The notes under the pieces: model-generated | The model's input: the letters and a program-made list of their open reading frames with translations, nothing else | Told to the model about the DNA's origin: nothing | Database searches by the model: none | Shown here: one piece after another, positions 4,746 through 61,918 of the stretch | How positions within the stretch are numbered: the first letter of the stretch is position 1 | Layout of the letters: each line of letters opens with the position of its first letter | Position numbers and translations under genes: made by a program | DNA from: a phage | Strand: one strand, 5' to 3' | DNA: 64,000 bases | NCBI GenBank assembly: GCA_033580375.1 | Contig: GCA_033580375.1_4527.1

Positions 4746-5240
4746 TCACAACTTATTGATATTTACTTTAATTCGCTTTCTTTTCTTGTAAGGAATTTGT
4801 TCTGGACCTTTATTTACGACTGCACCTGTAGTTGTTCCTGATGCAATAGCTTGAGGGCTGCCACCTGAATCACCGGCCACCATATCCTCAAATAAAGGGA
4901 GTTCTTTAAATATTTCTTTCTGTTGTTCTTCAGTAATGTTATAGCGTGAAGCTACAGCACTCCAAGCAGACATCATTGAGGCCATTCCATTAAGACCCGG
5001 AACAGTGCTCATCATTCGCTTCATTGAACGAACTGAAGCATGAAAAGGTGTATAAGCCGCTTTCTCTTCAGGAGTAGAAGGACGTTTAAGAACACTTCCA
5101 CGTTCGTCGATTATTTTGGCTTCGTACGCTTTCCATTCTGTAAAAGGTTTTTGCATTAGTCGAATAAACTTATATGCATAAACTGAATCTATTGCAGTGT
5201 TAATAATACCCATAGGTACCTCCTGAGTATATTTAATCAA
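4746..5240 (-). CDS. hypothetical protein
   Basis: 164-aa ORF between primase and helicase genes. Confidence 0.5.
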   Translation of the reverse strand: MIKYTQEVPMGIINTAIDSVYAYKFIRLMQKPFTEWKAYEAKIIDERGSVLKRPSTPEEKAAYTPFHASVRSMKRMMSTVPGLNGMASMMSAWSAVASRYNITEEQQKEIFKELPLFEDMVAGDSGGSPQAIASGTTTGAVVNKGPEQIPYKKRKRIKVNINKL

Positions 5241-5430
5241 TCACAAAGATCGCTTTATCGCCGTTCGCATCTGTGACTTCATATGTAGTGTCTTCATAGT
5301 GTGGAATATTCCAAATTACACCATCATTAGCTTTTACGCTAATATGACATTGGTGTTTTGAAACAACTTCATAATCTTCAAAACTTGTAAAAACACTAAT
5401 TTTAGAACCAGTGCAAATTGCAGTAGTCAT
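5233..5430 (-). CDS. hypothetical protein
   Basis: 65-aa ORF, tightly packed with neighbours. Confidence 0.4.
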   Translation of the reverse strand: MTTAICTGSKISVFTSFEDYEVVSKHQCHISVKANDGVIWNIPHYEDTTYEVTDANGDKAIFVID

Positions 5431-5431
5431 T

Positions 5432-6091
5432 TTAACCTCGATTCATAAATGCATTAAATATTTGGTCATCAACAGAAATTTCTAATTCGACTTCAATTGC
5501 TTCAGCCTTTTCTTCAGGTGGTAATTCGTATCCACACACTACAATTTTTTCATCGATATCAAAATATACAGAAGCAATATGATTAATGTTATTTTCAGTT
5601 AAGTCTAAATCAACATCAACATCTTTTTGACCTACACTTAAAGGATAACTAATACGGGTTATTTTATTATCTTTAACAAAGAGTCCACCAACATACTCTG
5701 TACTACGTTTGAAGTTTACACGTTTCCGAATTGAAAGATATGATGCATCTTTACCGTGGGCTCGGCTCATAGGACATAATGAATAACTAGAATAAGAGAT
5801 ATCAAATCCTACGCCTTCAACATGTGCCAGAGTATCATGAGTAAACCAATTATAGTCGTATGCCAAATCCATTAAATTATAATATGTGAATGGAACCGGA
5901 TTAACGTCATACGTTGTACCTTTAAAATCTGCCCAGGCAACGATTTCGTTATCTTTAACAATTACAAAAATTACACCAATATGGTATCCGTTATTATTTT
6001 CATTCGGCGTTATATTATAACATTGTGCATTAGGAAATTTACCATATTTAAATGGCGCGTTTTTGTGCATATAATAAATCATATTATTCAC
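5432..6091 (-). CDS. hypothetical protein
   Basis: 219-aa ORF, no recognisable motif. Confidence 0.5.
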   Translation of the reverse strand: MNNMIYYMHKNAPFKYGKFPNAQCYNITPNENNNGYHIGVIFVIVKDNEIVAWADFKGTTYDVNPVPFTYYNLMDLAYDYNWFTHDTLAHVEGVGFDISYSSYSLCPMSRAHGKDASYLSIRKRVNFKRSTEYVGGLFVKDNKITRISYPLSVGQKDVDVDLDLTENNINHIASVYFDIDEKIVVCGYELPPEEKAEAIEVELEISVDDQIFNAFMNRG

Positions 6092-8211: not shown

Positions 8212-9654
8212 TTAAAATTTTAACTCATTGGCTAAGCTATCTAGGTCAGCCCGTGTTGCCTTGGCTTTACCTACGCGTTCCGTGCGATTCACCTCTGCCT
8301 GACGCATCTGAGCACCTGCGTTTTCATTTACCGTGTTAGGTGTGTTCATGCCTTCTTGCTCAATCTCAACCCATTTCTGATTGCCTTTACGTACACCCAT
8401 CAAGAACTTGTTCCACTTATTCTTATCACCATATCGTGATTTGATTTGTTTGATAAGTTGTTGTTCAGCTTGTGCAAGTTCTTCGGTTTCAATTACGGCC
8501 AACATGAAATCTGCTGTCGCCGGTAAACCTGCTGATTCTGCAATATCACTCATGTTCATGTCTGAAGCATCCCATGCTGCACGTCCTACTTGAGCTGCAG
8601 TCCATAGAACTGTTTCAGATTCTACTGCTAATGCACGAAGTTCTTCTGCGATAGCTTTAACTAATGTGTAACTATTTTCAGTGTAAACTCTGATACGACA
8701 AGACCCACAAATACCTAAGTAATCGACTATAATTACAGACGGCACAAAGTTCTTCTTAAGTTTCAATTCATTAAGCAATGCACGGAATGTATTAGCATTA
8801 GCTCCACCAGTAGGATACTGTTTAACTACTAAACGTCCTAATGTTGATTTTGAACGCCATTTTTCCATCTTGGCTTTATATTCAGCATAAGATACGTTAC
8901 CATCATCGATATCATCGAGTGATACGTCAAGCATGTTTGCATCTATACGCTTAGCACAAACTTCTTCAGCCATTTCCATGGAAATATAAAGAACATTATG
9001 TCCTGTTTGAAGATAATCTGCAGCAAGTGAACAAAGGCCTAAAGATTTACCAACGTTAACACCAGCCATTAAAACGTTTAGTGTACCTGTTTCTGCACCA
9101 CCTTTAGTGATTTTATTCAGAATGTTTAATTTGAACGGGACCTTACGTGCTTTATTTAGATAAGAAAGCCAGCGTGATTCGTAGTCTTCCATCCAGTCAT
9201 GACCAACATAACTATCAAACGAAATTGAAAGTGCTTGACGCATAATATCAGGAATAGCTCCTACGTCAGGCATTTTCTTGTTACGTTGTTCTGGAGGTAG
9301 TTCGGCATTAGTCTGAATCTCAATGATTTTGGACGTGGCATTATACATCGCTTTTTGCTGGACATATTTCTCAGTTTCTTTAACCAACCATTCGTGGTCT
9401 TCAGGAGTATCAGCCAATTTTTCAATTAGGTCTGAAGTTCCTTTATATTCGGCTTCAGTTAAAGAACTGTTATCTAAAGCCACCTTTAATGCATTGATAG
9501 ATGGCATTGCATTATATTCGTTAACGTGGCTCTTTATAATTTTAAAGACATTTTTTGCCGGTCCACGCTCAAAATACTCAGAATCCATATAAGGCCAGAC
9601 CTTAGAAAAATAAGCCTGGTCGTATACGAGATGAGACAAAATAATTTCTACCAC
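8212..9654 (-). CDS. 41: replicative DNA helicase gp41 (DnaB-like)
   Basis: 480 aa; Walker A GVNVGKS, DnaB-family layout, matches T4 gp41. Confidence 0.9.
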   Translation of the reverse strand: MVEIILSHLVYDQAYFSKVWPYMDSEYFERGPAKNVFKIIKSHVNEYNAMPSINALKVALDNSSLTEAEYKGTSDLIEKLADTPEDHEWLVKETEKYVQQKAMYNATSKIIEIQTNAELPPEQRNKKMPDVGAIPDIMRQALSISFDSYVGHDWMEDYESRWLSYLNKARKVPFKLNILNKITKGGAETGTLNVLMAGVNVGKSLGLCSLAADYLQTGHNVLYISMEMAEEVCAKRIDANMLDVSLDDIDDGNVSYAEYKAKMEKWRSKSTLGRLVVKQYPTGGANANTFRALLNELKLKKNFVPSVIIVDYLGICGSCRIRVYTENSYTLVKAIAEELRALAVESETVLWTAAQVGRAAWDASDMNMSDIAESAGLPATADFMLAVIETEELAQAEQQLIKQIKSRYGDKNKWNKFLMGVRKGNQKWVEIEQEGMNTPNTVNENAGAQMRQAEVNRTERVGKAKATRADLDSLANELKF

Positions 9655-9663
9655 GATAACTCC

Positions 9664-10026
9664 TTAAAAGAATTTAAATTTTTTCTTGGTTCGTTCATTA
9701 AAAGCTTGTTGTACCTGCATTGTAACACATTTTTCAACATGCGGCGCAAGTTCTGCTTTTCTGTCCTGGTCAAGAACTGCAAAGTCCATTACGATTTTAC
9801 CATCAACCCAGTCTAGTTTTGTAATATAGACTATATGATGAGAACCGTCTTCAAGTGTAATCAGAATCTCTTGAATGACGTTTTCCATTGCTGAACGGAT
9901 AATTTTAAGAGATTCATTAAACACTCGTTCTTTGCGAATGTCTTCCCCTTCCGAAGAAGGGGATTCATCAACGATTTCTAGATTTAAATCATCGAGATTA
10001 TTCATCGAAATCTTCCATTTCGTCAA
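9664..10026 (-). CDS. 40: gp40-like protein (head vertex assembly chaperone)
   Basis: 120-aa ORF in the conserved 41-40-uvsX position; call by synteny only. Confidence 0.45.
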   Translation of the reverse strand: MTKWKISMNNLDDLNLEIVDESPSSEGEDIRKERVFNESLKIIRSAMENVIQEILITLEDGSHHIVYITKLDWVDGKIVMDFAVLDQDRKAELAPHVEKCVTMQVQQAFNERTKKKFKFF

Positions 10027-11170
10027 GGTCGTTTTCTATATCTGCTGCAGATGGAGCATCAGAAGTTTTAACCGGAACTTTAGTTGTTGCTTTGCAATTA
10101 ATAAGGTCGTTAACTGCGTCATCAACTTCTTTAATAGAAGAGATAGCGCCTAGTTTATATTTAGTTTCAATTGCATCTCGGAAAGGTTTGTGTTTAAACA
10201 ACGGTCCCCAGAATTCTACGCAATCAGTAGCTTTAGCACGCCATGATTTCTCTTCACGAATCATTTCACCTGTTTCTTCGTCAAGGAATTCACGAGCATA
10301 CCAACCGGCTTTAGGTTTAACCACAAAACCAATTTCAGTTGCCATTTCTAACAAGCCACTGAATGGGTCAATACCGCCATCAAAATTAACCGTGATCGGG
10401 AAAGTAGATTTCTCTTTAACAGTACGAGATTTTTCTGCTTTCAACGTGAAGTCATAACCGGTCAATTCTGTACCTTCTTTAACCTGACGTTTAGAGATAA
10501 AGAATACAGTGTTAGCAGAGTAAAGAATACCTGTACCACCACCCATAATCTCTTTAGGATATAGTCCACCGATTTCCATTGCTGTATGGTTAATTGCAAC
10601 ACATGGAATATCTTTAATAGTCAGATACGGGGTCACAATACGGAACAGAGATTTAAGTGCCTTAGCACGAGACATATCACCTACGACTTTCTCGTTCAAT
10701 GCATCTTCGGTTTCTTTCTTAGATGCAGTATTACCGATTGAATCGATAAAGATAATAACTTTATCACCGCGTTCAATAGCGTCAAGCTGATTAGTCATAT
10801 CAACTTTAAGTTGTTCGACGGACTGAATTGGTGTGTGAACTACACGGTCTAAATCAACACCCATTGAACGAAAATAAGATTCTGAAGCACCGAATTCTGA
10901 ATCATAGAACAAACAAATTGCATCTTTATATTTCTTCATATACGCTGCAACCATGGTCAGCCCAAACAATGTTTTAAAATGTTTAGAAGGTGCAGCAAAA
11001 ATAGTCAAGCCTGATTGCAATCCTGCATTCAGAGCACCACCTAGTGCAATATTCAACATCGGAATACGAGTAGGGACTTCATCGCGATTATTAAACAGCT
11101 TAGACTTAGTCAAGTCTGCAGTCATTTTAGAAGTAGAAGCTTTAATCAGACGAGATTTTAAATCAGACAT
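9998..11170 (-). CDS. uvsX: recombinase UvsX (RecA-like)
   Basis: MSDLKSRLIKASTSK...RIPMLNIALGG...NHT...WYAREFLDEETGEMIREEKSWRAK nearly co-linear with T4 UvsX. Confidence 0.9.
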   Translation of the reverse strand: MSDLKSRLIKASTSKMTADLTKSKLFNNRDEVPTRIPMLNIALGGALNAGLQSGLTIFAAPSKHFKTLFGLTMVAAYMKKYKDAICLFYDSEFGASESYFRSMGVDLDRVVHTPIQSVEQLKVDMTNQLDAIERGDKVIIFIDSIGNTASKKETEDALNEKVVGDMSRAKALKSLFRIVTPYLTIKDIPCVAINHTAMEIGGLYPKEIMGGGTGILYSANTVFFISKRQVKEGTELTGYDFTLKAEKSRTVKEKSTFPITVNFDGGIDPFSGLLEMATEIGFVVKPKAGWYAREFLDEETGEMIREEKSWRAKATDCVEFWGPLFKHKPFRDAIETKYKLGAISSIKEVDDAVNDLINCKATTKVPVKTSDAPSAADIENDLDEMEDFDE

Positions 11171-11269
11171 TGTATTTTTCCATAGGCATCATTATATTTT
11201 ACTCATGTTTAAAAGATAAGATGATTATATACTAATGATTATACAGCATTTAAAACTTTAAACAGGCTC

Positions 11270-11818
11270 TTAACGAGCCCATTTGATGATTTCTGTAATC
11301 AAATCATTACGTTCGCTTGCATTAAATCCTATAACTTTGTTAGCACCATCATGATTAAGTAATTGATACGTTTGGATTTTGTTATGAATTGCAAACTCTT
11401 CAAAATGTGAAATGACTGTATTAAAACTGAGTGAAGACAAAGTAATAAGATCGTCTTCAAAACTTTCAGTCATTTCGTTACGTGTTAAAATAATTGTGAA
11501 CACGTCATGGTTTTGGCAAAGACGAACATAATCCTGCTCATAAACATCAAGAACCGAGTCCGCATCTTGTCGAATACGTCCATAAACCCAGTTACTAATA
11601 TATCCACGGTCTAACAGATAAATCTTAGTAGGGTCTAAATAATTCAACATCGTTTCGAAACAACCAACTTCATTTCGAGACTTAACATCGAAACGTCCAT
11701 CAACTGTTCGTTTAGGGAAATCAATCTTTACATATCTTTCACTAATTTCCATTATGACATTAATGAAAGTTGTTTTGCCGGCATTATCTGGGCCATCTAC
11801 TAAAATAATTTTAGCCAT
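11270..11818 (-). CDS. thymidylate-kinase-like P-loop nucleotide kinase
   Basis: 182 aa; ILVDGPDNAGKTT Walker A and DRGYISNWVYG resembling the Tmk DR motif. Confidence 0.5.
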   Translation of the reverse strand: MAKIILVDGPDNAGKTTFINVIMEISERYVKIDFPKRTVDGRFDVKSRNEVGCFETMLNYLDPTKIYLLDRGYISNWVYGRIRQDADSVLDVYEQDYVRLCQNHDVFTIILTRNEMTESFEDDLITLSSLSFNTVISHFEEFAIHNKIQTYQLLNHDGANKVIGFNASERNDLITEIIKWAR

Positions 11819-11819
11819 T

Positions 11820-12716
11820 TTATTCCTCGATTACGACATCTTCGTATTTAGGTATATTATACGGCGAAGAAATTAAAGCATTAAAGTAGATGAACTCACC
11901 AAGACCTGGATGGAATACTTCTTCAGGATTTTCGAAATATTGAATCTTCGGACGTCCTTTAAGAATTTGATAGTACTCAGTTTTAGTTGGTTTAAAAATT
12001 CGAATCAGCGCTTCTTCAGGATACTTATTTCTGTCGAAGCTATTATTTGGATCGGTTATATAAAGTGGTTGTCCTAATTGAATTGCACATTCAACCACTT
12101 GTTCAAAATGATAACACGGATCACTAATTCGAAATGGATGAAAAATACCATCTACATGAATAGGAGCCAAATCACCTACAAGACGCTGCATGATGGAAGG
12201 ACGTATAACTTTCTGCGTTACGATAATCTTATTATCTGCGCCAGCGTTAACCAGCACTTCTTTTTGACGTTCATTCAACACAGTAGTTTGAAGTGAACGA
12301 TTAACCGACAACATGTCGGTTTTTAAGAATTCGTCAATATAAAAACGTGGTTTATTAGGGTCTGCAGTGATATTGAAATTGAATTCTACATCAAAAGCGC
12401 CGTCATATCCAGTGATATCTGTGATTAGAAAATCACAATCATAATAAGCAATTAATGAATCAACAACAAATTCATTTTCAGACCAGAAATATTTACGAGT
12501 GTTATACGCGTTATCTTTATACCATAATGGAACAAACTTAAATTCTGGGAAAAGACGTTCACATTCTTTAATATCAGATGCATTACGTGGATATGTAATC
12601 ACATCACCCGGATTAGCACGGTGCAAATGAAGTTGGAAGTTGCCATCCTTAAGGATAGCATACTGTCCAGTTTCATAAGACCGCATACTCAAGATTGGTA
12701 CGCGGAAAATAGCCAT
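11820..12716 (-). CDS. hypothetical protein at the T4 beta-gt position; candidate DNA-modifying transferase
   Basis: 298-aa ORF; no similarity to T4 beta-gt recognisable by eye. Confidence 0.45.
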   Translation of the reverse strand: MAIFRVPILSMRSYETGQYAILKDGNFQLHLHRANPGDVITYPRNASDIKECERLFPEFKFVPLWYKDNAYNTRKYFWSENEFVVDSLIAYYDCDFLITDITGYDGAFDVEFNFNITADPNKPRFYIDEFLKTDMLSVNRSLQTTVLNERQKEVLVNAGADNKIIVTQKVIRPSIMQRLVGDLAPIHVDGIFHPFRISDPCYHFEQVVECAIQLGQPLYITDPNNSFDRNKYPEEALIRIFKPTKTEYYQILKGRPKIQYFENPEEVFHPGLGEFIYFNALISSPYNIPKYEDVVIEE

Positions 12717-53437: not shown

Positions 53438-53678
53438 CTCGGTCCCATGATTTAGCCATTAATTCGGACATAAATTCTTCAATGCGCGTTTCTTTAGATG
53501 GACTTTCACTATTAGAGACCGCAAGTTTGTAATCTGCAATAGGACGGAACAAATCAAGGTCCATATTAAGATCGTCTTTGATTTTTTCTTCTGACACATC
53601 TTTATCATATGTGTACAGATAACTATCACATGATTCTGATTTAATGTAAATTGCTATACTCATCTCAAATTCCTGCAT
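53427..53678 (-). CDS. hypothetical protein
   Basis: 83-aa acidic ORF. Confidence 0.4.
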   Translation of the reverse strand: MQEFEMSIAIYIKSESCDSYLYTYDKDVSEEKIKDDLNMDLDLFRPIADYKLAVSNSESPSKETRIEEFMSELMAKSWDRDDE

Positions 53679-54151
53679 TCGGTAATAAAACGTTCAACTT
53701 CATTATTCTTGGCTTTTATCTTGTCTTTACGTTCCTGTAAACTACTTTTAACAAGATTAATAATGATGCCTATAGTACCTCCACCAATAATACCACCAAT
53801 AATACTTACGATAGTAGATGCTAATAATATAGCGATAATATCTGGTATGGCAAAGGCACTTACTTTAGTACTAAAAAACCATACCGACGGTGCAAATATA
53901 ATCCATCCTGTTATCCATTGGCACTTATTGAAAAACTTTTCAAGCTCAGCTTGAGTTGTTCGTATTACTTCATCGATAGGTTGATATCCATTAATGTATC
54001 TGTTCACGATAATACCTGCTGGCTGGTCGATTTTAAATTCTTGGCAAATACGTTTCACTAAGTAGGATGGACATCCTGTCCAATCTACTGAGTAGTACGA
54101 AATACCTTCATTACCGTCGTCTATATTAGACCAATATGTTTTGTTAATCAT
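53660..54151 (-). CDS. membrane-anchored protein
   Basis: 163 aa; hydrophobic segments in C-terminal half including Gly-zipper IIGGIIGGGTIGII. Confidence 0.45.
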   Translation of the reverse strand: MINKTYWSNIDDGNEGISYYSVDWTGCPSYLVKRICQEFKIDQPAGIIVNRYINGYQPIDEVIRTTQAELEKFFNKCQWITGWIIFAPSVWFFSTKVSAFAIPDIIAILLASTIVSIIGGIIGGGTIGIIINLVKSSLQERKDKIKAKNNEVERFITECRNLR

Positions 54152-54837
54152 TACCAGCCTTCCATAGGGAATTCCAGATAAACTTGGGCATTGACACGAA
54201 TTTCATTGGTAATCTTTTTAACTCGGTCTGTATTACGAGATACACGTCCGAACCAACGCCATCCATTACTAATTGCACGAGAACCAGTGTGCCATGTTTG
54301 CCAATCAAACTGAAGAAGAGTACGGTCTGGAGCTTCCCATTTCTCTAGTTCACCTTTTTCAATTTTTTCGAGGACTTCTTTGTGCCATTGTCGATAGATA
54401 AGTTCGCCATCAGGAATCTGACTGAACTCTGCAGTTCCTGTTGCAAAATGAGTAGGACACACGTCAGCGTTAACAAGGCCAAGAATATGTTCAGACAAAT
54501 AGCGAGGATTGTCATAATCAGGTTGTCCTGCAGTAATAAAATGTTGACCAACTGGAATATCCGGGCGTGGTACATCGTCATGGTGATAACCTGGGATAGC
54601 AGGGTACCAACCAGGCATCAGCATGTGGACTCGTGAATCAAATACCACATCCGAGCCTTTCCAATCGTCAGGGAGATTTTGGATAAAGCTACGAGTAATT
54701 GGGCCGCCATTATCAAAAGCAAAATTCAAATCGCAGTTAAAGAACATAGGCTCGTTTTTAATCTGGTCATTTTTAATCGCATGAGCAAAACCACCTACTG
54801 CACGAGCTTGACTATTAAACACTTTAGAACTATTCAT
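54151..54837 (-). CDS. hypothetical protein
   Basis: 228-aa ORF. Confidence 0.45.
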   Translation of the reverse strand: MNSSKVFNSQARAVGGFAHAIKNDQIKNEPMFFNCDLNFAFDNGGPITRSFIQNLPDDWKGSDVVFDSRVHMLMPGWYPAIPGYHHDDVPRPDIPVGQHFITAGQPDYDNPRYLSEHILGLVNADVCPTHFATGTAEFSQIPDGELIYRQWHKEVLEKIEKGELEKWEAPDRTLLQFDWQTWHTGSRAISNGWRWFGRVSRNTDRVKKITNEIRVNAQVYLEFPMEGW

Positions 54838-54838
54838 A

Positions 54839-55144
54839 TTATTTTCCTCGACATTCTTTAATGAAATTTTCTAGATTGGTAGATTCAATAGCTTTTTTAC
54901 GAGCTTCTGCATGTTCTTCTTCAGACAATTTACATTTATAATTAACCCAGACGTTATGGTCAAAACTAGTCGTGGCGTATAATAACAAAGCCCCGACAAA
55001 TAATAAAAATGGTGATAAGAATACAAAACCAGGAACACCATCCATATCGTAAGCCTTTTGTAATACTGCAACAGAAAGAGCTGCATAAAAAGGTGATGCA
55101 AATATTGTTAAAAGACCAATTCGGTTGGTTTCTGTTAATTTCAT
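54839..55144 (-). CDS. membrane protein
   Basis: 101 aa with two hydrophobic helices. Confidence 0.45.
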   Translation of the reverse strand: MKLTETNRIGLLTIFASPFYAALSVAVLQKAYDMDGVPGFVFLSPFLLFVGALLLYATTSFDHNVWVNYKCKLSEEEHAEARKKAIESTNLENFIKECRGK

Positions 55145-55214: not shown

Positions 55215-56171
55215 TTATTTGAAAGGTTTTACCATATGGAAATTTTGTTTGAAACGTTTGACGTAATCATCATGTCCTAAGCTTTGGTACATACTTACTA
55301 CTTTGCTGTAGTTTTCCCAAGCGTATTCACGGAACCAACCGGAGGTGATGCTTGTGCAGACTTTTTCTAATGCCATCATAAAACTGGCTTCAGGGTTAAT
55401 TTTAAAGTCATTAGGAATCTGAGAACGTTCTAATGCTAGTACACATGATTCTTCGTATACACCGGCCAATTTGACCATTTCTGGTAATGATTCGAACTTC
55501 TCGCGTGAGGTCATGACTTCAGAACCATCTTTCATGTAAAACGTATAAGCAGGGCGGTCTGTTAGTGCAATGGCTTCGTGAATAGTATCATGGACATACG
55601 TATAGATGTCATCTTTAAAGAATGCGCTTTTAGAAGTGTCAAGAACTGGGTGAGCATAGTTCAAGGTTTCTTTCTGGCGTTTCAGCATAATTTCAGTAAG
55701 TTCATCGTTCAGTGTAACACCTTTACCACGAAGATACTGAATATGGTTCATAGTCTTTAAAAAGAATGGATTATTTTTCTTGAAACGATGAGACATCTTA
55801 ATTGCAAGACACATCTCAGGAGTTGCCCAGTAAAACCCGTTCAAACGGTCTTTAGTCAAATTTTTCTTGGCGTATTTTAAAAGGTCATAAGAAGACGTGA
55901 AATCTTCAGGAGTGAGTTCACCGACTAATTCACGGACATTAGTGATTGCCGGAACAATATATGCTTCAAAATGAGTTTCGCGTCCATTATGGAAGCATTT
56001 GAAAACTTGGACATCAGGATTATCTTGGTGAACATATACACCCATCATTTGATTTTTGAATGCATTCCAAGAACCTTGGTCCGCAATAAAGTCCCAGTCA
56101 CTATTTTTAATAGCGCTAGAATCAATAAGGCCGTGATAGTGAAGTGCACGAGAACCAATAACTAACATCAT
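55215..56171 (-). CDS. hypothetical protein
   Basis: 318-aa ORF, no motif recognised. Confidence 0.5.
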   Translation of the reverse strand: MMLVIGSRALHYHGLIDSSAIKNSDWDFIADQGSWNAFKNQMMGVYVHQDNPDVQVFKCFHNGRETHFEAYIVPAITNVRELVGELTPEDFTSSYDLLKYAKKNLTKDRLNGFYWATPEMCLAIKMSHRFKKNNPFFLKTMNHIQYLRGKGVTLNDELTEIMLKRQKETLNYAHPVLDTSKSAFFKDDIYTYVHDTIHEAIALTDRPAYTFYMKDGSEVMTSREKFESLPEMVKLAGVYEESCVLALERSQIPNDFKINPEASFMMALEKVCTSITSGWFREYAWENYSKVVSMYQSLGHDDYVKRFKQNFHMVKPFK

Positions 56172-56196: not shown

Positions 56197-56448
56197 TTAA
56201 ATTTCGCGACATGCGATATTATATTCATCCCAGAGGTCATCGTGTGAAGCCTCTACCAATGGAACGATTGTACCGTTTATGTCTTCATTATAAGGACAAA
56301 TTGTACAGTGCGCATCTTCGAATCGTATGCCTTTGTGTTCAGATTTTTTATAACGCATATCGAATATCTTTGCAAACTTTTCACGAGTAATGGTTTTACC
56401 AACCACTTTGGTTCCGATACTTTCGTAATAAATCATTGTGGACTCCAT
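56197..56448 (-). CDS. hypothetical protein
   Basis: 83-aa ORF. Confidence 0.4.
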   Translation of the reverse strand: MESTMIYYESIGTKVVGKTITREKFAKIFDMRYKKSEHKGIRFEDAHCTICPYNEDINGTIVPLVEASHDDLWDEYNIACREI

Positions 56449-56456
56449 TTAATTTG

Positions 56457-56494
56457 ATAGGACTACTATAACATAGCCCTATCTTGTTGTAAAC
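56457..56494 (-). promoter_or_regulatory. early promoter cassette (taggactactataacatagccctat)
   Basis: near-copy of the 44065 cassette with GTTTAC. Confidence 0.5.
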
Positions 56495-56498
56495 TGTT

Positions 56499-56696
56499 TT
56501 AGCAAGAATAACTAGACGATACCCAGCCTTGAACAGTAATACTATTATTGGATAATGAGATTGCGTTCTGGAGATTCAGACCTGCGTTATCTTCAATCCA
56601 CAATGTAACTTCTTCGCGTTCTTCTGTTGCAATTTGGAACAGGTTTTCCAGAGCAGCTACTGCCGTACGTACAGCACAATCTAATTCACGAGACAT
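56499..56696 (-). CDS. small protein, paralog family with C-terminal GWVSSS..C (member 3)
   Basis: 65 aa ending QGWVSSSYSC. Confidence 0.45.
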   Translation of the reverse strand: MSRELDCAVRTAVAALENLFQIATEEREEVTLWIEDNAGLNLQNAISLSNNSITVQGWVSSSYSC

Positions 56697-56705
56697 ATGG
56701 TTTCC

Positions 56706-56978
56706 TTAGCAAGTGTGAGAAGATGCAACCCAACCGCCGTCTTCAAGGCTCAGGTTGTAGTCGTATTGGTAAACGTCAGCCCATTCAGCATAACCGTTTT
56801 TTGTACAACGTTCAAGATCGGCTTTAAGATGTCCAGGTGAATGATAGGTTCCACCCATACCATAAGCTGGATACAAGTCGAATGTTGTGTTTTGTTTATT
56901 AGCAATTTCTTTGGCTGCCTCAATAGCTGCATAGATTTTTGCTACGGCTTCAGCCAGTTCGGTTTGTTCTTTAGACAT
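56706..56978 (-). CDS. small protein, paralog family with C-terminal GWVSSS..C (member 2)
   Basis: 90 aa ending GGWVASSHTC. Confidence 0.45.
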   Translation of the reverse strand: MSKEQTELAEAVAKIYAAIEAAKEIANKQNTTFDLYPAYGMGGTYHSPGHLKADLERCTKNGYAEWADVYQYDYNLSLEDGGWVASSHTC

Positions 56979-56987
56979 AATGATTCC

Positions 56988-57293
56988 TTAGCACAATGCA
57001 GAAGAGGAAACCCAAGCACCTTCAGTAATAACGTAACCATTACCTTCACGCTTAACATCGCCACCATTATTTTCAATTTCATCTTTCATCCACTGGGATA
57101 CAATTTCACCCTTAGGATAATAAGTACGACCGCTACCATAATCACCTACAGAAAACGATACGGCGTATTGGTCTGCGATCTTTGTTGCTTCTTCTTCGAT
57201 ACGTTCAGCTTGATTCAGAAGTTTATAAATTGCATCTGAAGCGGATTTGGCATCATTAAACTCTGGTACTTTAATTTCGATAATCTTACTCAT
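56988..57293 (-). CDS. small protein, paralog family with C-terminal GWVSSS..C (member 1)
   Basis: 101 aa ending GAWVSSSALC. Confidence 0.45.
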   Translation of the reverse strand: MSKIIEIKVPEFNDAKSASDAIYKLLNQAERIEEEATKIADQYAVSFSVGDYGSGRTYYPKGEIVSQWMKDEIENNGGDVKREGNGYVITEGAWVSSSALC

Positions 57294-57649
57294 TTTCTAC
57301 ATTCCTTAATAAAGTTTTCGATTGTTTCATTTTCACGTTTAGCTAGGAGTTCATTATAACTAATCATTTGAGAAGCGTAAACCTTTTTATTTTTCTTGTT
57401 ATGGTTTATAAAATCGTAGTAAAAATAGACTACAGTACAAAATGATGCGATGGATGCAAAGGCTTGGGTATACCGTAAGTCCTGCCATTGGTCTGTGAAT
57501 CCACCAGTGTTCCCTATAAATCCTAACACAACGCCGTCAATAATAAATCCAACTAATCCAAAGGCAAATCCCATGCCAATACTCATAATAAAAATTAGAA
57601 TGTTCTCGCCAAGAGAAGGCCATACGGTTAAGAGTTGAGGCTTTTGCAT
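57290..57649 (-). CDS. membrane protein
   Basis: 119 aa with about three TM helices. Confidence 0.45.
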   Translation of the reverse strand: MQKPQLLTVWPSLGENILIFIMSIGMGFAFGLVGFIIDGVVLGFIGNTGGFTDQWQDLRYTQAFASIASFCTVVYFYYDFINHNKKNKKVYASQMISYNELLAKRENETIENFIKECRK

Positions 57650-58053
57650 CTTATTTCCTTAACGAATTCCATAGCTTCTTCATATTCATACTTTTTAACA
57701 GCTTCATCATACTGAGCTTGGGCTTTTGCGCACTGAACTTTCCATTCTCTTAATCGGGCTCTGTGATGACGGCCTTGGTGCCAATATCCGGCCCAATTAA
57801 TAGGCATTAATAAAAACGGTACAATAAGTGGTGCGACGAACATTAATGAAAACGCTGCATCAGACGATATAACTTTATTGGAATCTAAAATAGCTCCTAT
57901 AATCATAAAGATTAAAAATGCTAAAGCTAAAATAGGACCAAACAACACTTCATTTGGGATTAATTTACGCTTGTATTCATACGCCCAGGGCTTACTTGGC
58001 ATGTATAGGGTTGGCTTTGACATATTCTCTACATTCCATAATAAATTGCTCAA
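57628..58053 (-). CDS. membrane protein (start uncertain)
   Basis: 141 aa with two TM helices and basic C-terminus. Confidence 0.4.
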   Translation of the reverse strand: MSNLLWNVENMSKPTLYMPSKPWAYEYKRKLIPNEVLFGPILALAFLIFMIIGAILDSNKVISSDAAFSLMFVAPLIVPFLLMPINWAGYWHQGRHHRARLREWKVQCAKAQAQYDEAVKKYEYEEAMEFVKEIRCKSLNS

Positions 58054-58594
58054 GGATTAAATTGTTAGTGAAATTAGGACTAACAACCATAGTTTCATAA
58101 AGCGCATCAATAGCACTTAAAGCATCAACTCTTTTAAGCAAAGGCTTGCCTTCATACATAGTTTCAGAATCTACGATTAACGTAAAGTAATATTTTTTAT
58201 TATCGACTAGAACTTCAGTATCGATATAAAACATGTTAGACCTTAAAAGCTTATCTCTAAAACCATAATAATCTTCAGAGCGTTCGCTGATATATTCCCA
58301 TTCGGTGTTTAAACAACAAACAGACCACGTAGGAGCAACGAAATCAGTGAATCTAATATCATGGTCTGCAACTAGTTTAGCAATAGCTCCGATATCATTA
58401 ATCATAATACCTGGGGCTAATAAAGATTTTCTGCTATGGCTAGCCGTTTTCTCAGTAGTCTCATAAGAAGACGACCAGTACCATTTACGTCCAGTTGCAA
58501 CATATCGTAATGAATCAACTAAAGACGTAGGTGGATTTACCTTATCTCGGAACTCTTCGAACATTGAGTCAATATCATTATTTTGGTTTCGCAT
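57992..58594 (-). CDS. hypothetical protein
   Basis: ATG at 58594 with AAGGAG SD (track ORF starts further upstream on a non-ATG codon). Confidence 0.45.
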   Translation of the reverse strand: MRNQNNDIDSMFEEFRDKVNPPTSLVDSLRYVATGRKWYWSSSYETTEKTASHSRKSLLAPGIMINDIGAIAKLVADHDIRFTDFVAPTWSVCCLNTEWEYISERSEDYYGFRDKLLRSNMFYIDTEVLVDNKKYYFTLIVDSETMYEGKPLLKRVDALSAIDALYETMVVSPNFTNNLILEQFIMECREYVKANPIHAK

Positions 58595-58611
58595 GTTAAC
58601 TCCTTTATTAT

Positions 58612-58635
58612 CCAAAAGGAGGACCGGAGTCCTCC
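58612..58635 (-). terminator. rho-independent terminator
   Basis: minus RNA GGAGGAC-UCCG-GUCCUCC followed by UUUU. Confidence 0.55.
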
Positions 58636-61761: not shown

Positions 61762-61838
<77 letters not shown>

Positions 61839-61844
61839 AATATA

Positions 61845-61918
61845 TGACCCAGACCAGATTCGAACTGGTAACCTTTCCCTTATGAGGGGACTGCTACTAA
61901 CCGTTGAGCTACAGGGCC
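61845..61918 (-). tRNA. tRNA with CAU anticodon (Met or Ile2)
   Basis: hand-folded: T-arm ACCAG-TTCGAAT-CTGGT, anticodon loop CTCATAA, acceptor GGCCCTG/CTGGGTC with one mismatch; no encoded CCA. Confidence 0.55.

What the first reader, a model, noticed from the sequence alone, without database searches (positions are those of the whole stretch)
56499..57293. Tandem trio of small paralogs ending in a conserved GWVSSS..C motif
Three adjacent genes of 101, 90 and 65 aa have divergent bodies but C-termini GAWVSSSALC, GGWVASSHTC and QGWVSSSYSC, each with Cys as the last residue. A conserved C-terminal tail on tandem paralogs suggests a shared processing, modification or targeting signal with variable cargo.
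Basis: seen in the sequence. Interest (0 to 1): 0.6.

Follow-up and report, generated by a model that had tools for sequence, protein, structure and literature searches.

The report
Cys-tailed small proteins paired with nucleotidyltransferase
The three small genes are real. They carry a short C-terminal tag (Trp-x-x-Ser-Ser-x-x-Cys) that almost always sits just upstream of one uncharacterised nucleotidyltransferase gene in hundreds of phage genomes, so they look like an undescribed two-part phage module.

Summary
Three tightly packed minus-strand genes (101, 90 and 65 aa) end in WVSSSALC, WVASSHTC and WVSSSYSC. No other reading frame in the 64-kb window has such an end.

The window is an RB69-like (Mosigvirus) T4-type coliphage. 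The 101- and 90-aa proteins are true paralogs of a large, phage-only, acidic family. That family is absent from Pfam and NCBIfam, and its confident AF2 model matches no solved fold. The 65-aa protein shares only the tail.

The main new result is a genetic link. Tail-bearing genes (1-5 per locus) lie upstream, on the same strand, of a DUF7277+DUF7275 protein (window 55215..56171).
- 87 of 90 dereplicated enzyme loci have them.
- 35 of 37 loci fetched through the small family have the enzyme.
- No other neighbour is conserved.

The enzyme keeps an invariant Pol-beta nucleotidyltransferase triad. Its model is closest to the MenT1/MenT3/MenT4 toxins and to ANT(2'').

My best reading is that the tail is the interface with this enzyme, most likely as an acceptor tag modified on Ser. 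An antitoxin-like inhibitor role, as in MenA1-MenT1, is a close rival. Neither role has been tested. I found no literature on the module.

The parts
56988..57293 (-). 101-aa small acidic protein, type A (..ADQYAVSFSVGDYGSGRTYYP..GAWVSSSALC). Counterpart of RB69ORF139c.
56706..56978 (-). 90-aa small acidic protein, type B (..AYGMGGTYHSPG..GGWVASSHTC). Type B is the commonest family type.
   Evidence: With the tail removed it scores 59.6 bits against the type-B HMM and 20.3 bits against the type-A HMM; shuffles reach at most 6 bits.
56499..56696 (-). 65-aa protein, type D (phrog_4882). It shares the tail but no detectable body homology with types A and B.
   Evidence: Orthologs at the same position in related T4-like phages all keep the W[VQAT]SSSxxC end. 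With the tail removed it scores 1-2 bits against the A/B HMMs, and hhalign probability is 1-3%.
56991..57014 (-). Tail of the 101-aa protein: W-V-S-S-S-A-L-C, followed by the stop codon.
   Evidence: Family tail logo: W, S and S (positions -4 and -3) and the terminal C are invariant in 183 Cys-ended members (that set was pre-filtered on the tail, and the unfiltered count is).
56709..56732 (-). Tail of the 90-aa protein: W-V-A-S-S-H-T-C.
56502..56525 (-). Tail of the 65-aa protein: W-V-S-S-S-Y-S-C.
57117..57143 (-). Second family motif in the 101-aa protein: the Gly-rich loop DYGSGRTYY.
   Evidence: Y52, G53, G55, T57 and Y58 are at least 90% conserved in alignment A3.
56841..56867 (-). The same loop in the 90-aa protein: AYGMGGTYH.
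55215..56171 (-). Partner gene: 318-aa DUF7277+DUF7275 protein, a predicted Pol-beta-type nucleotidyltransferase with a MenT/ANT-like fold.
56197..56448 (-). 83-aa gene lying between the trio and the enzyme gene. It is not a conserved part of the module.
   Evidence: phrog_3723, unknown function. In many loci the enzyme gene follows the last small gene directly, and no third family is a conserved neighbour.
57353..57381 (-). Promoter-like site inside e.3, upstream of the trio.
   Evidence: TTTACG-17-TATAAT. A T4 middle promoter is annotated at the equivalent place in phage SA79RD. The number of such sites in the region is not above the shuffle expectation.
56465..56493 (-). Promoter-like site between the 65-aa gene and the 83-aa and enzyme genes.
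   Evidence: TTTACA-17-TATAGT with an upstream TG. SA79RD has a terminator annotated here. This is a consensus match only.

Best explanation
The trio is the small-protein half of a phage-specific two-component module. The other half is the DUF7277+DUF7275 nucleotidyltransferase encoded two genes downstream. The shared tail, W-x-x-S-S-(x-x)-Cys-COOH, is the element through which these otherwise diverse, acidic small proteins engage that enzyme.

Shown here:
- The tail is conserved.
- It occurs on bodies with no detectable similarity to each other.
- Tail-bearing genes and the enzyme gene are almost always adjacent.
- The enzyme has an intact Pol-beta catalytic triad and a MenT/ANT-like predicted fold.

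Inferred:
- The tail docks in the enzyme's active-site cleft.
- One of the two invariant serines (less likely the terminal Cys) serves as acceptor for a nucleotidyl or phosphoryl group. The small proteins would then be tagged substrates, and their variable bodies would carry out different tasks early to mid infection.

My rough confidence by layer is 0.85 for the functional partnership, 0.6 for the tail as interface, and 0.35 for covalent modification of the tail.
For: Synteny:
- 72 of 80 viral loci fetched through the enzyme have 1-4 family members within 2.7 kb upstream on the same strand.
- After dereplication, and with a tail regex plus tblastn, 87 of 90 loci have an adjacent tail-bearing ORF.
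- In the reverse direction, 35 of 37 loci fetched through the YGMGG motif have the enzyme within about 1.5 kb downstream.
- The tail motif occurs in 278 of 1363 ORFs in the upstream zone and in 11 of 7128 elsewhere.
- No other conserved neighbour exists across 50 enzyme clusters.
- The pairing holds from coliphages to 370-kb jumbo-phage contigs.

Portable tag:
- Type D (the 65-aa protein) shares only the tail.
- Type E proteins carry the motif twice, once internally and once at the end.
- Two fixed spacings exist, WxxSSxxC (76%) and WxxSSC (19%).

Chemistry:
- The invariant tail residues are nucleophiles (Ser, Ser, Cys) plus a Trp anchor, and Ser is replaced by Thr in some members.
- The enzyme's structural neighbours transfer NMP to hydroxyl groups: tRNA 3'-OH for MenT, drug hydroxyls for ANT(2'') and LnuA.
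- MenT enzymes can phosphorylate a protein Ser/Thr, namely their own (PMC11375011).

Evolution:
- The enzyme evolves slowly and the small proteins fast (45-55% against about 30% identity).
- Several paralog types are kept side by side across genera. That fits several distinct substrates better than one inhibitor.
Against: - There is no biochemical evidence of any kind.
- AF2 puts the tail inside the fold (last strand plus a short helix, pLDDT about 87) rather than as a free tail.
- In this phage a terminator or promoter-like site and an unrelated gene separate the trio from the enzyme gene.
- Phage CC31 and locus L081 keep an intact enzyme with no tail-bearing neighbour.
- Distant enzyme branches in actinophages and a roseophage have none either, so the enzyme does not need these proteins to exist.
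Confidence: 0.45

Rival explanations
1. The small proteins are antitoxin-like inhibitors or regulators. They bind the MenT-like nucleotidyltransferase and block or tune it, with the tail acting as a pseudo-substrate plug in the active site. This would resemble the 68-aa MenA1, which is encoded upstream of MenT1 and blocks it. The enzyme's real substrate would be RNA, such as tRNA 3' ends.
For: - The best structural matches of the enzyme are the MenT1, MenT3 and MenT4 toxins.
- MenA1 is small, is encoded upstream, blocks the MenT1 active site and induces its auto-phosphorylation (PMC10435456; PMC11375011).
- The gene order here is the same, with small genes upstream on the same strand and near-obligate co-occurrence.
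- The small proteins are strongly acidic (median pI 4.5, net charge -8), which would suit an electropositive RNA-binding cleft.
- RNA-repair genes (Rnl1, PNKP, Rnl2, metallophosphoesterase) or tRNA genes lie nearby in some loci.
Against: - Up to five distinct tail-bearing gene types are kept in parallel in one genome, although one inhibitor would be enough.
- The tail sits on bodies with no detectable similarity to each other.
- Unrelated genes, and in this phage a terminator or promoter-like site, often lie between the small genes and the enzyme gene.
- CC31 and L081 keep an intact enzyme without any such gene.
- There is no sequence or fold similarity to MenA1. The fold matches nothing solved.
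Confidence: 0.3
2. The tail is intrinsic to the small proteins' own function or fold: a buried Trp, Ser residues capping the last helix, and a terminal Cys used for metal binding or dimerisation. The proteins would act on host targets independently of the enzyme, and the adjacency would reflect co-inheritance in one accessory cassette or a shared pathway without direct contact.
For: - AF2 places the tail within the folded core at high confidence.
- The A/B types have a second invariant motif (YGxGGTY) and an invariant Asp, which could form a ligand or metal site together with the tail.
- In 95 of 185 members the terminal Cys is the only Cys.
- Intervening genes and separate promoter-like sites occur.
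Against: - Co-occurrence of about 97% across very distant phages, with no other conserved neighbour, is hard to explain without a functional dependence.
- The tail is also kept on type D and type E proteins, which lack detectable fold-level sequence similarity.
- The fixed upstream, same-strand order is maintained across these loci.
Confidence: 0.15
3. The tail is a RiPP-like or lipidation-like site. Examples would be a Ser-to-Cys thioether (lanthionine), an AviCys-type C-terminal ring, or a CaaX-like modification, carried out by host or other phage enzymes.
For: The S-x-x-C-COOH spacing resembles lanthionine or AviCys ring spacing (from my own knowledge of epidermin and cypemycin-type peptides; not tested here). 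Ser and Cys are the residues such chemistry uses.
Against: - No dehydratase, cyclase, LanD-type decarboxylase or prenyltransferase is a conserved neighbour; only the nucleotidyltransferase is.
- About 19% of tails have the WxxSSC spacing, which leaves no room for such a ring.
- Cys is the last residue, not fourth from the end as in CaaX.
- The proteins are predicted to be folded and not leader-plus-core peptides.
Confidence: 0.05

Closest known systems
MenAT1 toxin-antitoxin pair (MenT1 nucleotidyltransferase plus the 68-aa MenA1), Mycobacterium tuberculosis
   Different: - The enzyme gives no hit to any Pfam family other than DUF7277 and DUF7275, and it carries a much larger, highly conserved C-terminal domain.
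- The partners have no similarity to MenA1. They are helix-plus-sheet proteins with an invariant Cys-terminal tail.
- There are 1-5 partner genes of different types per locus.
- The module is found in lytic phages and not in bacterial chromosomes.
MNT-HEPN type VII toxin-antitoxin (MntA-HepT), and GlnD/GlnE-type protein nucleotidylylation
   Same: A Pol-beta-superfamily nucleotidyltransferase covalently modifies a cognate partner protein on a hydroxyl side chain. That is the mechanism I favour here (general knowledge; not tested).
   Different: - Those systems modify Tyr. Here the candidate acceptors are Ser, Ser or Cys in a C-terminal tag.
- The partners have no HEPN domain or any other Pfam domain.
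RlaP (PF10127) and CCA-adding enzymes: phage and bacterial RNA-repair nucleotidyltransferases
   Same: Both are Pol-beta nucleotidyltransferases found in large phages, sometimes beside RNA ligase, PNKP and metallophosphoesterase genes, as in loci L003 and L134 (PMC7824862; bioRxiv 10.64898/2025.12.29.696909).
   Different: - The enzyme gives no PF10127 hit.
- RNA-repair genes are neighbours in only a few enzyme clusters.
- The sources I read on RlaP mention no tail-bearing small partners.
C-terminal tag systems: CaaX prenylation, ThiS/MoaD-GG adenylation, MccA-MccB, AviCys/lanthipeptide ends
   Same: A short conserved C-terminal motif on otherwise variable proteins or peptides is read by a dedicated enzyme.
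   Different: - The motif differs: Cys is the very last residue and is preceded by W-x-x-S-S.
- The associated enzyme class differs: Pol-beta nucleotidyltransferase, not an E1-like enzyme, a prenyltransferase or a Lan enzyme.
- The tag is predicted to be structured.
PHROG families phrog_899 and phrog_4882; Pfam DUF7277 and DUF7275
   Same: These are the database families that the window proteins belong to.
   Different: All are labelled 'unknown function'. The libraries list them as separate families and assign none of them a function. The tail, the link between the small families and the link to the enzyme come from the analyses here.

Membership tests
Small Cys-tailed phage protein family (phrog_899-like, types A and B) | N-terminal helix ending in ..AD.., a YGxG(G/R)TY loop, an acidic linker and a W-x-[SAP]-S-S-x-x-C end | tested here: met
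   The 101- and 90-aa proteins hit phrog_899 at E 1e-22 and 2e-18. They align with all motifs. With tails removed, cross-type HMM scores are 45 and 20 bits against at most 6 bits for shuffles.
Small Cys-tailed phage protein family (phrog_899-like, types A and B) | The same body features, tested for the 65-aa protein | tested here: not met
   It lacks the YGxGxTY loop. With the tail removed it scores 1-2 bits, no better than shuffles, and hhalign probability is 1-3%. It belongs to phrog_4882 and shares only the tail and the genomic position.
Pol-beta superfamily nucleotidyltransferase (the partner enzyme) | hG[GS] motif, [DE]x[DE] motif and a third acidic residue on the core sheet | tested here: met
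MenT/AbiEii (DUF1814, PF08843) toxins | Sequence membership in the Pfam family | tested here: not met
   Only DUF7277 and DUF7275 were found at E up to 1 for the full-length protein. At E up to 10, neither the N-terminal domain nor three homologs gave a PF08843 hit.
MenT/AbiEii (DUF1814, PF08843) toxins | Bilobed MenT-type fold | tested here: inconclusive
MenT/AbiEii (DUF1814, PF08843) toxins | Toxicity through NMP addition to tRNA 3' ends, neutralised by the cognate upstream antitoxin | not testable with these tools
   Only the gene order (small genes upstream) can be seen.
RlaP (PF10127) | Sequence membership, and a genomic link to an RNA ligase gene | tested here: not met
   No PF10127 hit. 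RNA ligase or PNKP neighbours occur in only a few enzyme clusters.
MNT-HEPN type VII toxin-antitoxin | Partner protein is a HEPN-domain RNase | tested here: not met
   The small proteins have no Pfam domain, and their fold matches nothing solved.
Lanthipeptide / AviCys RiPPs | Dehydratase, cyclase or LanD-type enzyme in the gene cluster, and a leader-core peptide architecture | tested here: not met
   The only conserved neighbour is the nucleotidyltransferase. The protein is predicted to be folded. The WxxSSC spacing variant cannot form such a ring.
CaaX-type prenylation signal | Cys at the fourth position from the C-terminus | tested here: not met
   Cys is the last residue in 129 of 138 representatives.

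The most novel reading that the evidence does not exclude
W-x-x-S-S-(x-x)-Cys-COOH is a portable acceptor tag, and the DUF7277+DUF7275 enzyme is a dedicated protein-tail nucleotidyl- or phosphoryl-transferase. A lytic phage would then post-translationally tag a set of unrelated small effector proteins with a MenT-like enzyme, possibly followed by further chemistry involving the terminal Cys. That would be a protein-tagging system of a kind I found no description of in phages, present in at least 712 sequenced phage genomes.
Probability: 0.3. Interest if true: 0.85.

Novelty: new variant of a known kind. Interest (0 to 1): 0.68.

Why it matters
Both halves of the module are annotated only as 'hypothetical' or 'DUF'. 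The enzyme occurs in 712 records of the phage collection, and the small family has 636 clusters at 50% identity. It spans T4-like, rV5/phi92-like and jumbo phages of Escherichia, Klebsiella, Acinetobacter, Aeromonas and Pseudomonas, including many phages of therapeutic interest.

- If the tail is an enzyme-read tag, this is a new way for phages to modify their own early proteins. It would also be a new activity for MenT-type nucleotidyltransferases, which so far are known as tRNA-modifying toxins.
- If the small proteins are inhibitors, lytic phages carry a regulated MenT-like enzyme with an unusual, multi-copy set of regulators.

Either way the finding turns several unknown phage gene families into one testable two-gene system, with clear point mutants to make: SS to AA, deletion of the terminal Cys, and the D25/D27 catalytic residues.

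Tried and rejected
- **Domain libraries.** Pfam, NCBIfam and PADLOC scans of the three proteins and of distant family members found no named family. The weak hits (Peptidase_S78_2, E217_Gp32, PDC-S49) are far below cut-off and I ignored them.
- **Weak enzyme hit.** A hisJ/PHP hit of the enzyme (18.5 bits against a cut-off of 90) conflicts with the all-helical prediction for that region, so I rejected it.
- **Solved structures.** Sequence searches of the PDB with the enzyme and with its profile found nothing.
- **Literature.** Searches for the RB69 ORF names, the DUF names, MenT/AbiEii in phages, RlaP, and AMPylation or counter-defence found nothing on these genes. I opened a phage toxicity-screen paper, but it gave no usable link.
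- **RlaP identity.** Rejected, because there is no PF10127 hit.
- **Bacterial origin.** A scan of 185,579 species genomes gave 8 loci, all on metagenome-assembled (MAG) contigs and probably phage-derived.
- **A third conserved component.** Rejected. The 83-aa gene here and the 218-aa gene in L003 are not conserved.
- **Faulty regex.** My first tail regex was one residue too short and returned nothing. I corrected it.
- **Not attempted.** Complex prediction and coordinate-level inspection of the models were not possible with these tools.

Full report
**1. The observation.** The window carries three adjacent minus-strand ORFs:
- 56988..57293, 101 aa, ending GAWVSSSALC
- 56706..56978, 90 aa, ending GGWVASSHTC
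- 56499..56696, 65 aa, ending QGWVSSSYSC

They are packed with 9-nt spacers. Each junction reads TGC-TAA-GGAA.., so the Cys codon and stop codon are followed at once by a Shine-Dalgarno-like AAGGAA for the next gene. Among 960 stop-to-stop segments of at least 30 aa in all six frames of the window, 30 end in Cys, and only these three carry a W..SS..C end.

**2. Where we are.** The region is 97% identical to many Mosigvirus (RB69-like, T4-type) coliphages. The genes lie in the block between e/nudE/e.2 and e.3-e.5. The 101-aa and 65-aa genes are annotated as similar to RB69ORF139c and RB69ORF136c, and the downstream enzyme gene as similar to RB69ORF134c. All are annotated 'hypothetical'.

**3. 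What the proteins are.**
- Pfam, NCBIfam and PADLOC have no family for them.
- PHROGs places the 101- and 90-aa proteins in phrog_899 and the 65-aa protein in phrog_4882. Both are of unknown function.
- Word-indexed searches and an exhaustive profile search show a large family: 636 clusters at 50% identity with E at most 1e-3.
- The family signature is an N-terminal helix ending ..(I)AD.., then G(V/I)xFxF, a Gly-rich loop (AYGMGGTYYP or GDYGSGRTYYP), an acidic and aromatic linker, and G-x-W-x-[S/A/P]-S-S-x-x-C.
- 129 of the 138 newly listed representatives end exactly at that Cys.
- The proteins are acidic (median pI 4.5, net charge -8). The terminal Cys is the only Cys in 95 of 185 members.
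- An AF2 model of the 101-aa protein is confident (pLDDT 90.4). It has one long helix (15-43) and a small sheet. WVSS forms the last strand and SALC a short helix.

**4. Are they paralogs?** I removed the tails and scored each protein against an HMM of the other type.
- The 101-aa protein scores 45 bits against the tail-less type-B model.
- The 90-aa protein scores 20 bits against the tail-less type-A model.
- Shuffled sequences reach at most 6 bits, so these two are true paralogs.
- The 65-aa body scores 1-2 bits, and profile-profile probability is 1-3%. It shares only the tail.

Related T4-like phages carry up to five tail-bearing gene types in this cluster:
- A, B and D are the types present here.
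- C ends ..GFWYSSSMxxC and is homologous to A/B at 93-96% hhalign probability.
- E carries the motif twice, internally as DWLNSSC-YGEE and at the end as IWxPSSC.

Two tail spacings exist, WxxSSxxC (76%) and WxxSSC (19%). They can co-occur in one locus. The tail therefore behaves as a portable element.

**5. The key finding: a fixed partner.**
- A family member on a 370-kb jumbo-phage contig, and another on a short metagenome contig, both lie just upstream of a DUF7275 protein. The same family is encoded at window 55215..56171.
- Of 80 viral loci fetched by similarity to that protein, 72 have 1-4 family members within 2.7 kb upstream on the same strand.
- After dereplication at 90% identity, and adding a tail regex and tblastn, 87 of 90 loci have an adjacent tail-bearing ORF. 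The copy number seen by the HMM is 1-5.
- In the reverse direction, 35 of 37 loci fetched through the YGMGG motif have the enzyme gene within about 1.5 kb downstream. One exception is a truncated locus. In the other, the enzyme gene lies about 30 kb away on the same contig.
- The tail motif occurs in 278 of 1363 ORFs in the 3-kb upstream same-strand zone and in 11 of 7128 ORFs elsewhere.
- Clustering of all neighbouring ORFs finds no other family conserved across the 50 enzyme clusters.
- The module is restricted to phages. A scan of 185,579 species genomes gave 8 loci, all on metagenome-assembled (MAG) contigs.
- The enzyme is present in 712 phage records.
- Exceptions: phage CC31 and locus L081 keep an intact enzyme without any tail-bearing gene. 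Distant enzyme branches (27-34% identity; Gordonia and Mycobacterium phages, DSS3_PM1) have none either.

**6. What the partner is.**
- In 43 diverse homologs, G6-S7, D25-x-D27 and E69 are invariant. This is the Pol-beta nucleotidyltransferase signature.
- Many residues of the large C-terminal domain are also invariant, including K125, S127, H128, R129, H174, H194, D195, H198, C272 and the block TSITSGWFRE.
- The AF2 model is confident (pLDDT 90).
- By sequence it belongs neither to PF08843 (AbiEii/MenT) nor to PF10127 (RlaP).
- It evolves more slowly than the small proteins. Where enzymes are 45-55% identical, the best small-protein pairs are about 30% identical.

**7. Mechanism.** The evidence shows a conserved, portable tail, near-obligate adjacency to one enzyme gene, and an enzyme that is probably catalytically competent. 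The rest is inference.

I favour the tail as the enzyme's recognition element and acceptor tag, for these reasons:
- It is the only feature shared by bodies with no detectable similarity to each other.
- Its invariant residues are nucleophiles plus an aromatic anchor.
- Several paralog types persist side by side.
- Enzymes of this structural group transfer NMP to hydroxyl groups.
- MenT enzymes can phosphorylate a protein Ser/Thr (PMC11375011).

The main rival is an antitoxin-like inhibitor or pseudo-substrate role, modelled on MenA1-MenT1 (PMC10435456). That rival fits the gene order, the acidity of the small proteins and the toxin-like fold. It explains less well the multiplicity and diversity of tail-bearing genes and the existence of enzymes without partners.

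A purely structural or independent role for the tail is possible, because AF2 puts it inside the fold. That reading does not explain the linkage. RiPP-like or CaaX-like readings fail their defining features.

**8. Novelty.** I found no description of the small family, the tail or the pairing in the searchable literature or in the curated libraries. The enzyme belongs to a known kind (MenT/ANT-like Pol-beta nucleotidyltransferase). The partner family, its fold, the tag and the multi-copy arrangement appear to be new. I therefore class it as a new variant of a known kind. I give about a 30% chance that it is a genuinely new protein-tagging system.

Noticed in passing
window 53660..54202, 54839..55144, 57290..57649 (e.3), 57628..58053 (e.4), 57992..58615 (e.5), all minus strand: Five genes flanking the trio share a different C-terminal motif, (E)xF(I/V)xE(C/I)R, near their ends..ERFITECRNLR..ENFIKECRGK..ENFIKECRK..EFVKEIRCKSLNS and ..EQFIMECREYVKANPIHAK. 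Several of them look like membrane proteins. This is a second recurrent C-terminal signature in the same gene block.
   Followed up: partly
RB69ORF139c (P0002), the counterpart of window 56988..57293: The RB69 reference copy of the 101-aa gene is annotated as a 71-aa protein that ends ..VSQWYEK, before the tail. This is probably a frameshift or a sequencing or annotation error in RB69.
   Followed up: no
L024 (Enterobacter phage CC31), upstream of 5001..5918: CC31 keeps an intact nucleotidyltransferase directly after its e.3-like gene but has lost all tail-bearing small genes. Its Karamvirus relatives (L026, L027, L031) have one. This makes CC31 a natural partner-less control.
   Followed up: partly
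L009-L023, type E genes, for example L010 4105..4329: A 74-77 aa protein type that is absent from this window carries the tail motif twice. An internal DWLNSSC lies directly before a YGEEAGRT loop, and IWxPSSC sits at the C-terminus. This hints that the tail and the Gly-rich loop form a single site.
   Followed up: partly
L003 689..3478 and 8647..12249; L134 1..1310; window 61762..61918: In some distant loci the module sits among RNA-repair genes: Rnl1, PNKP, a metallophosphoesterase and a DNA ligase in L003, and Rnl2 plus a metallophosphoesterase in DSS3_PM1. tRNA genes lie about 5.6 kb from the enzyme gene in this window (4.5 kb from the trio) and about 1.2 kb away in Gordonia phage Cucurbita. 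The association is not general.
   Followed up: partly
window 56197..56448, minus strand: An 83-aa gene (phrog_3723, unknown function, contains CTICP and ACREI) lies between the trio and the enzyme gene, behind a promoter-like TTTACA-17-TATAGT at 56493-56465. It is not conserved in the module elsewhere.
   Followed up: partly
L001 5632..6027 (Shigella phage JK45), equivalent to the window e.4 gene at 57628..58053: The e.4-like membrane protein is annotated 'sulfurtransferase' in the JK36, JK42 and JK45 records. The Pfam and PHROG scans give no support for this, so it is probably an annotation artefact.
   Followed up: no
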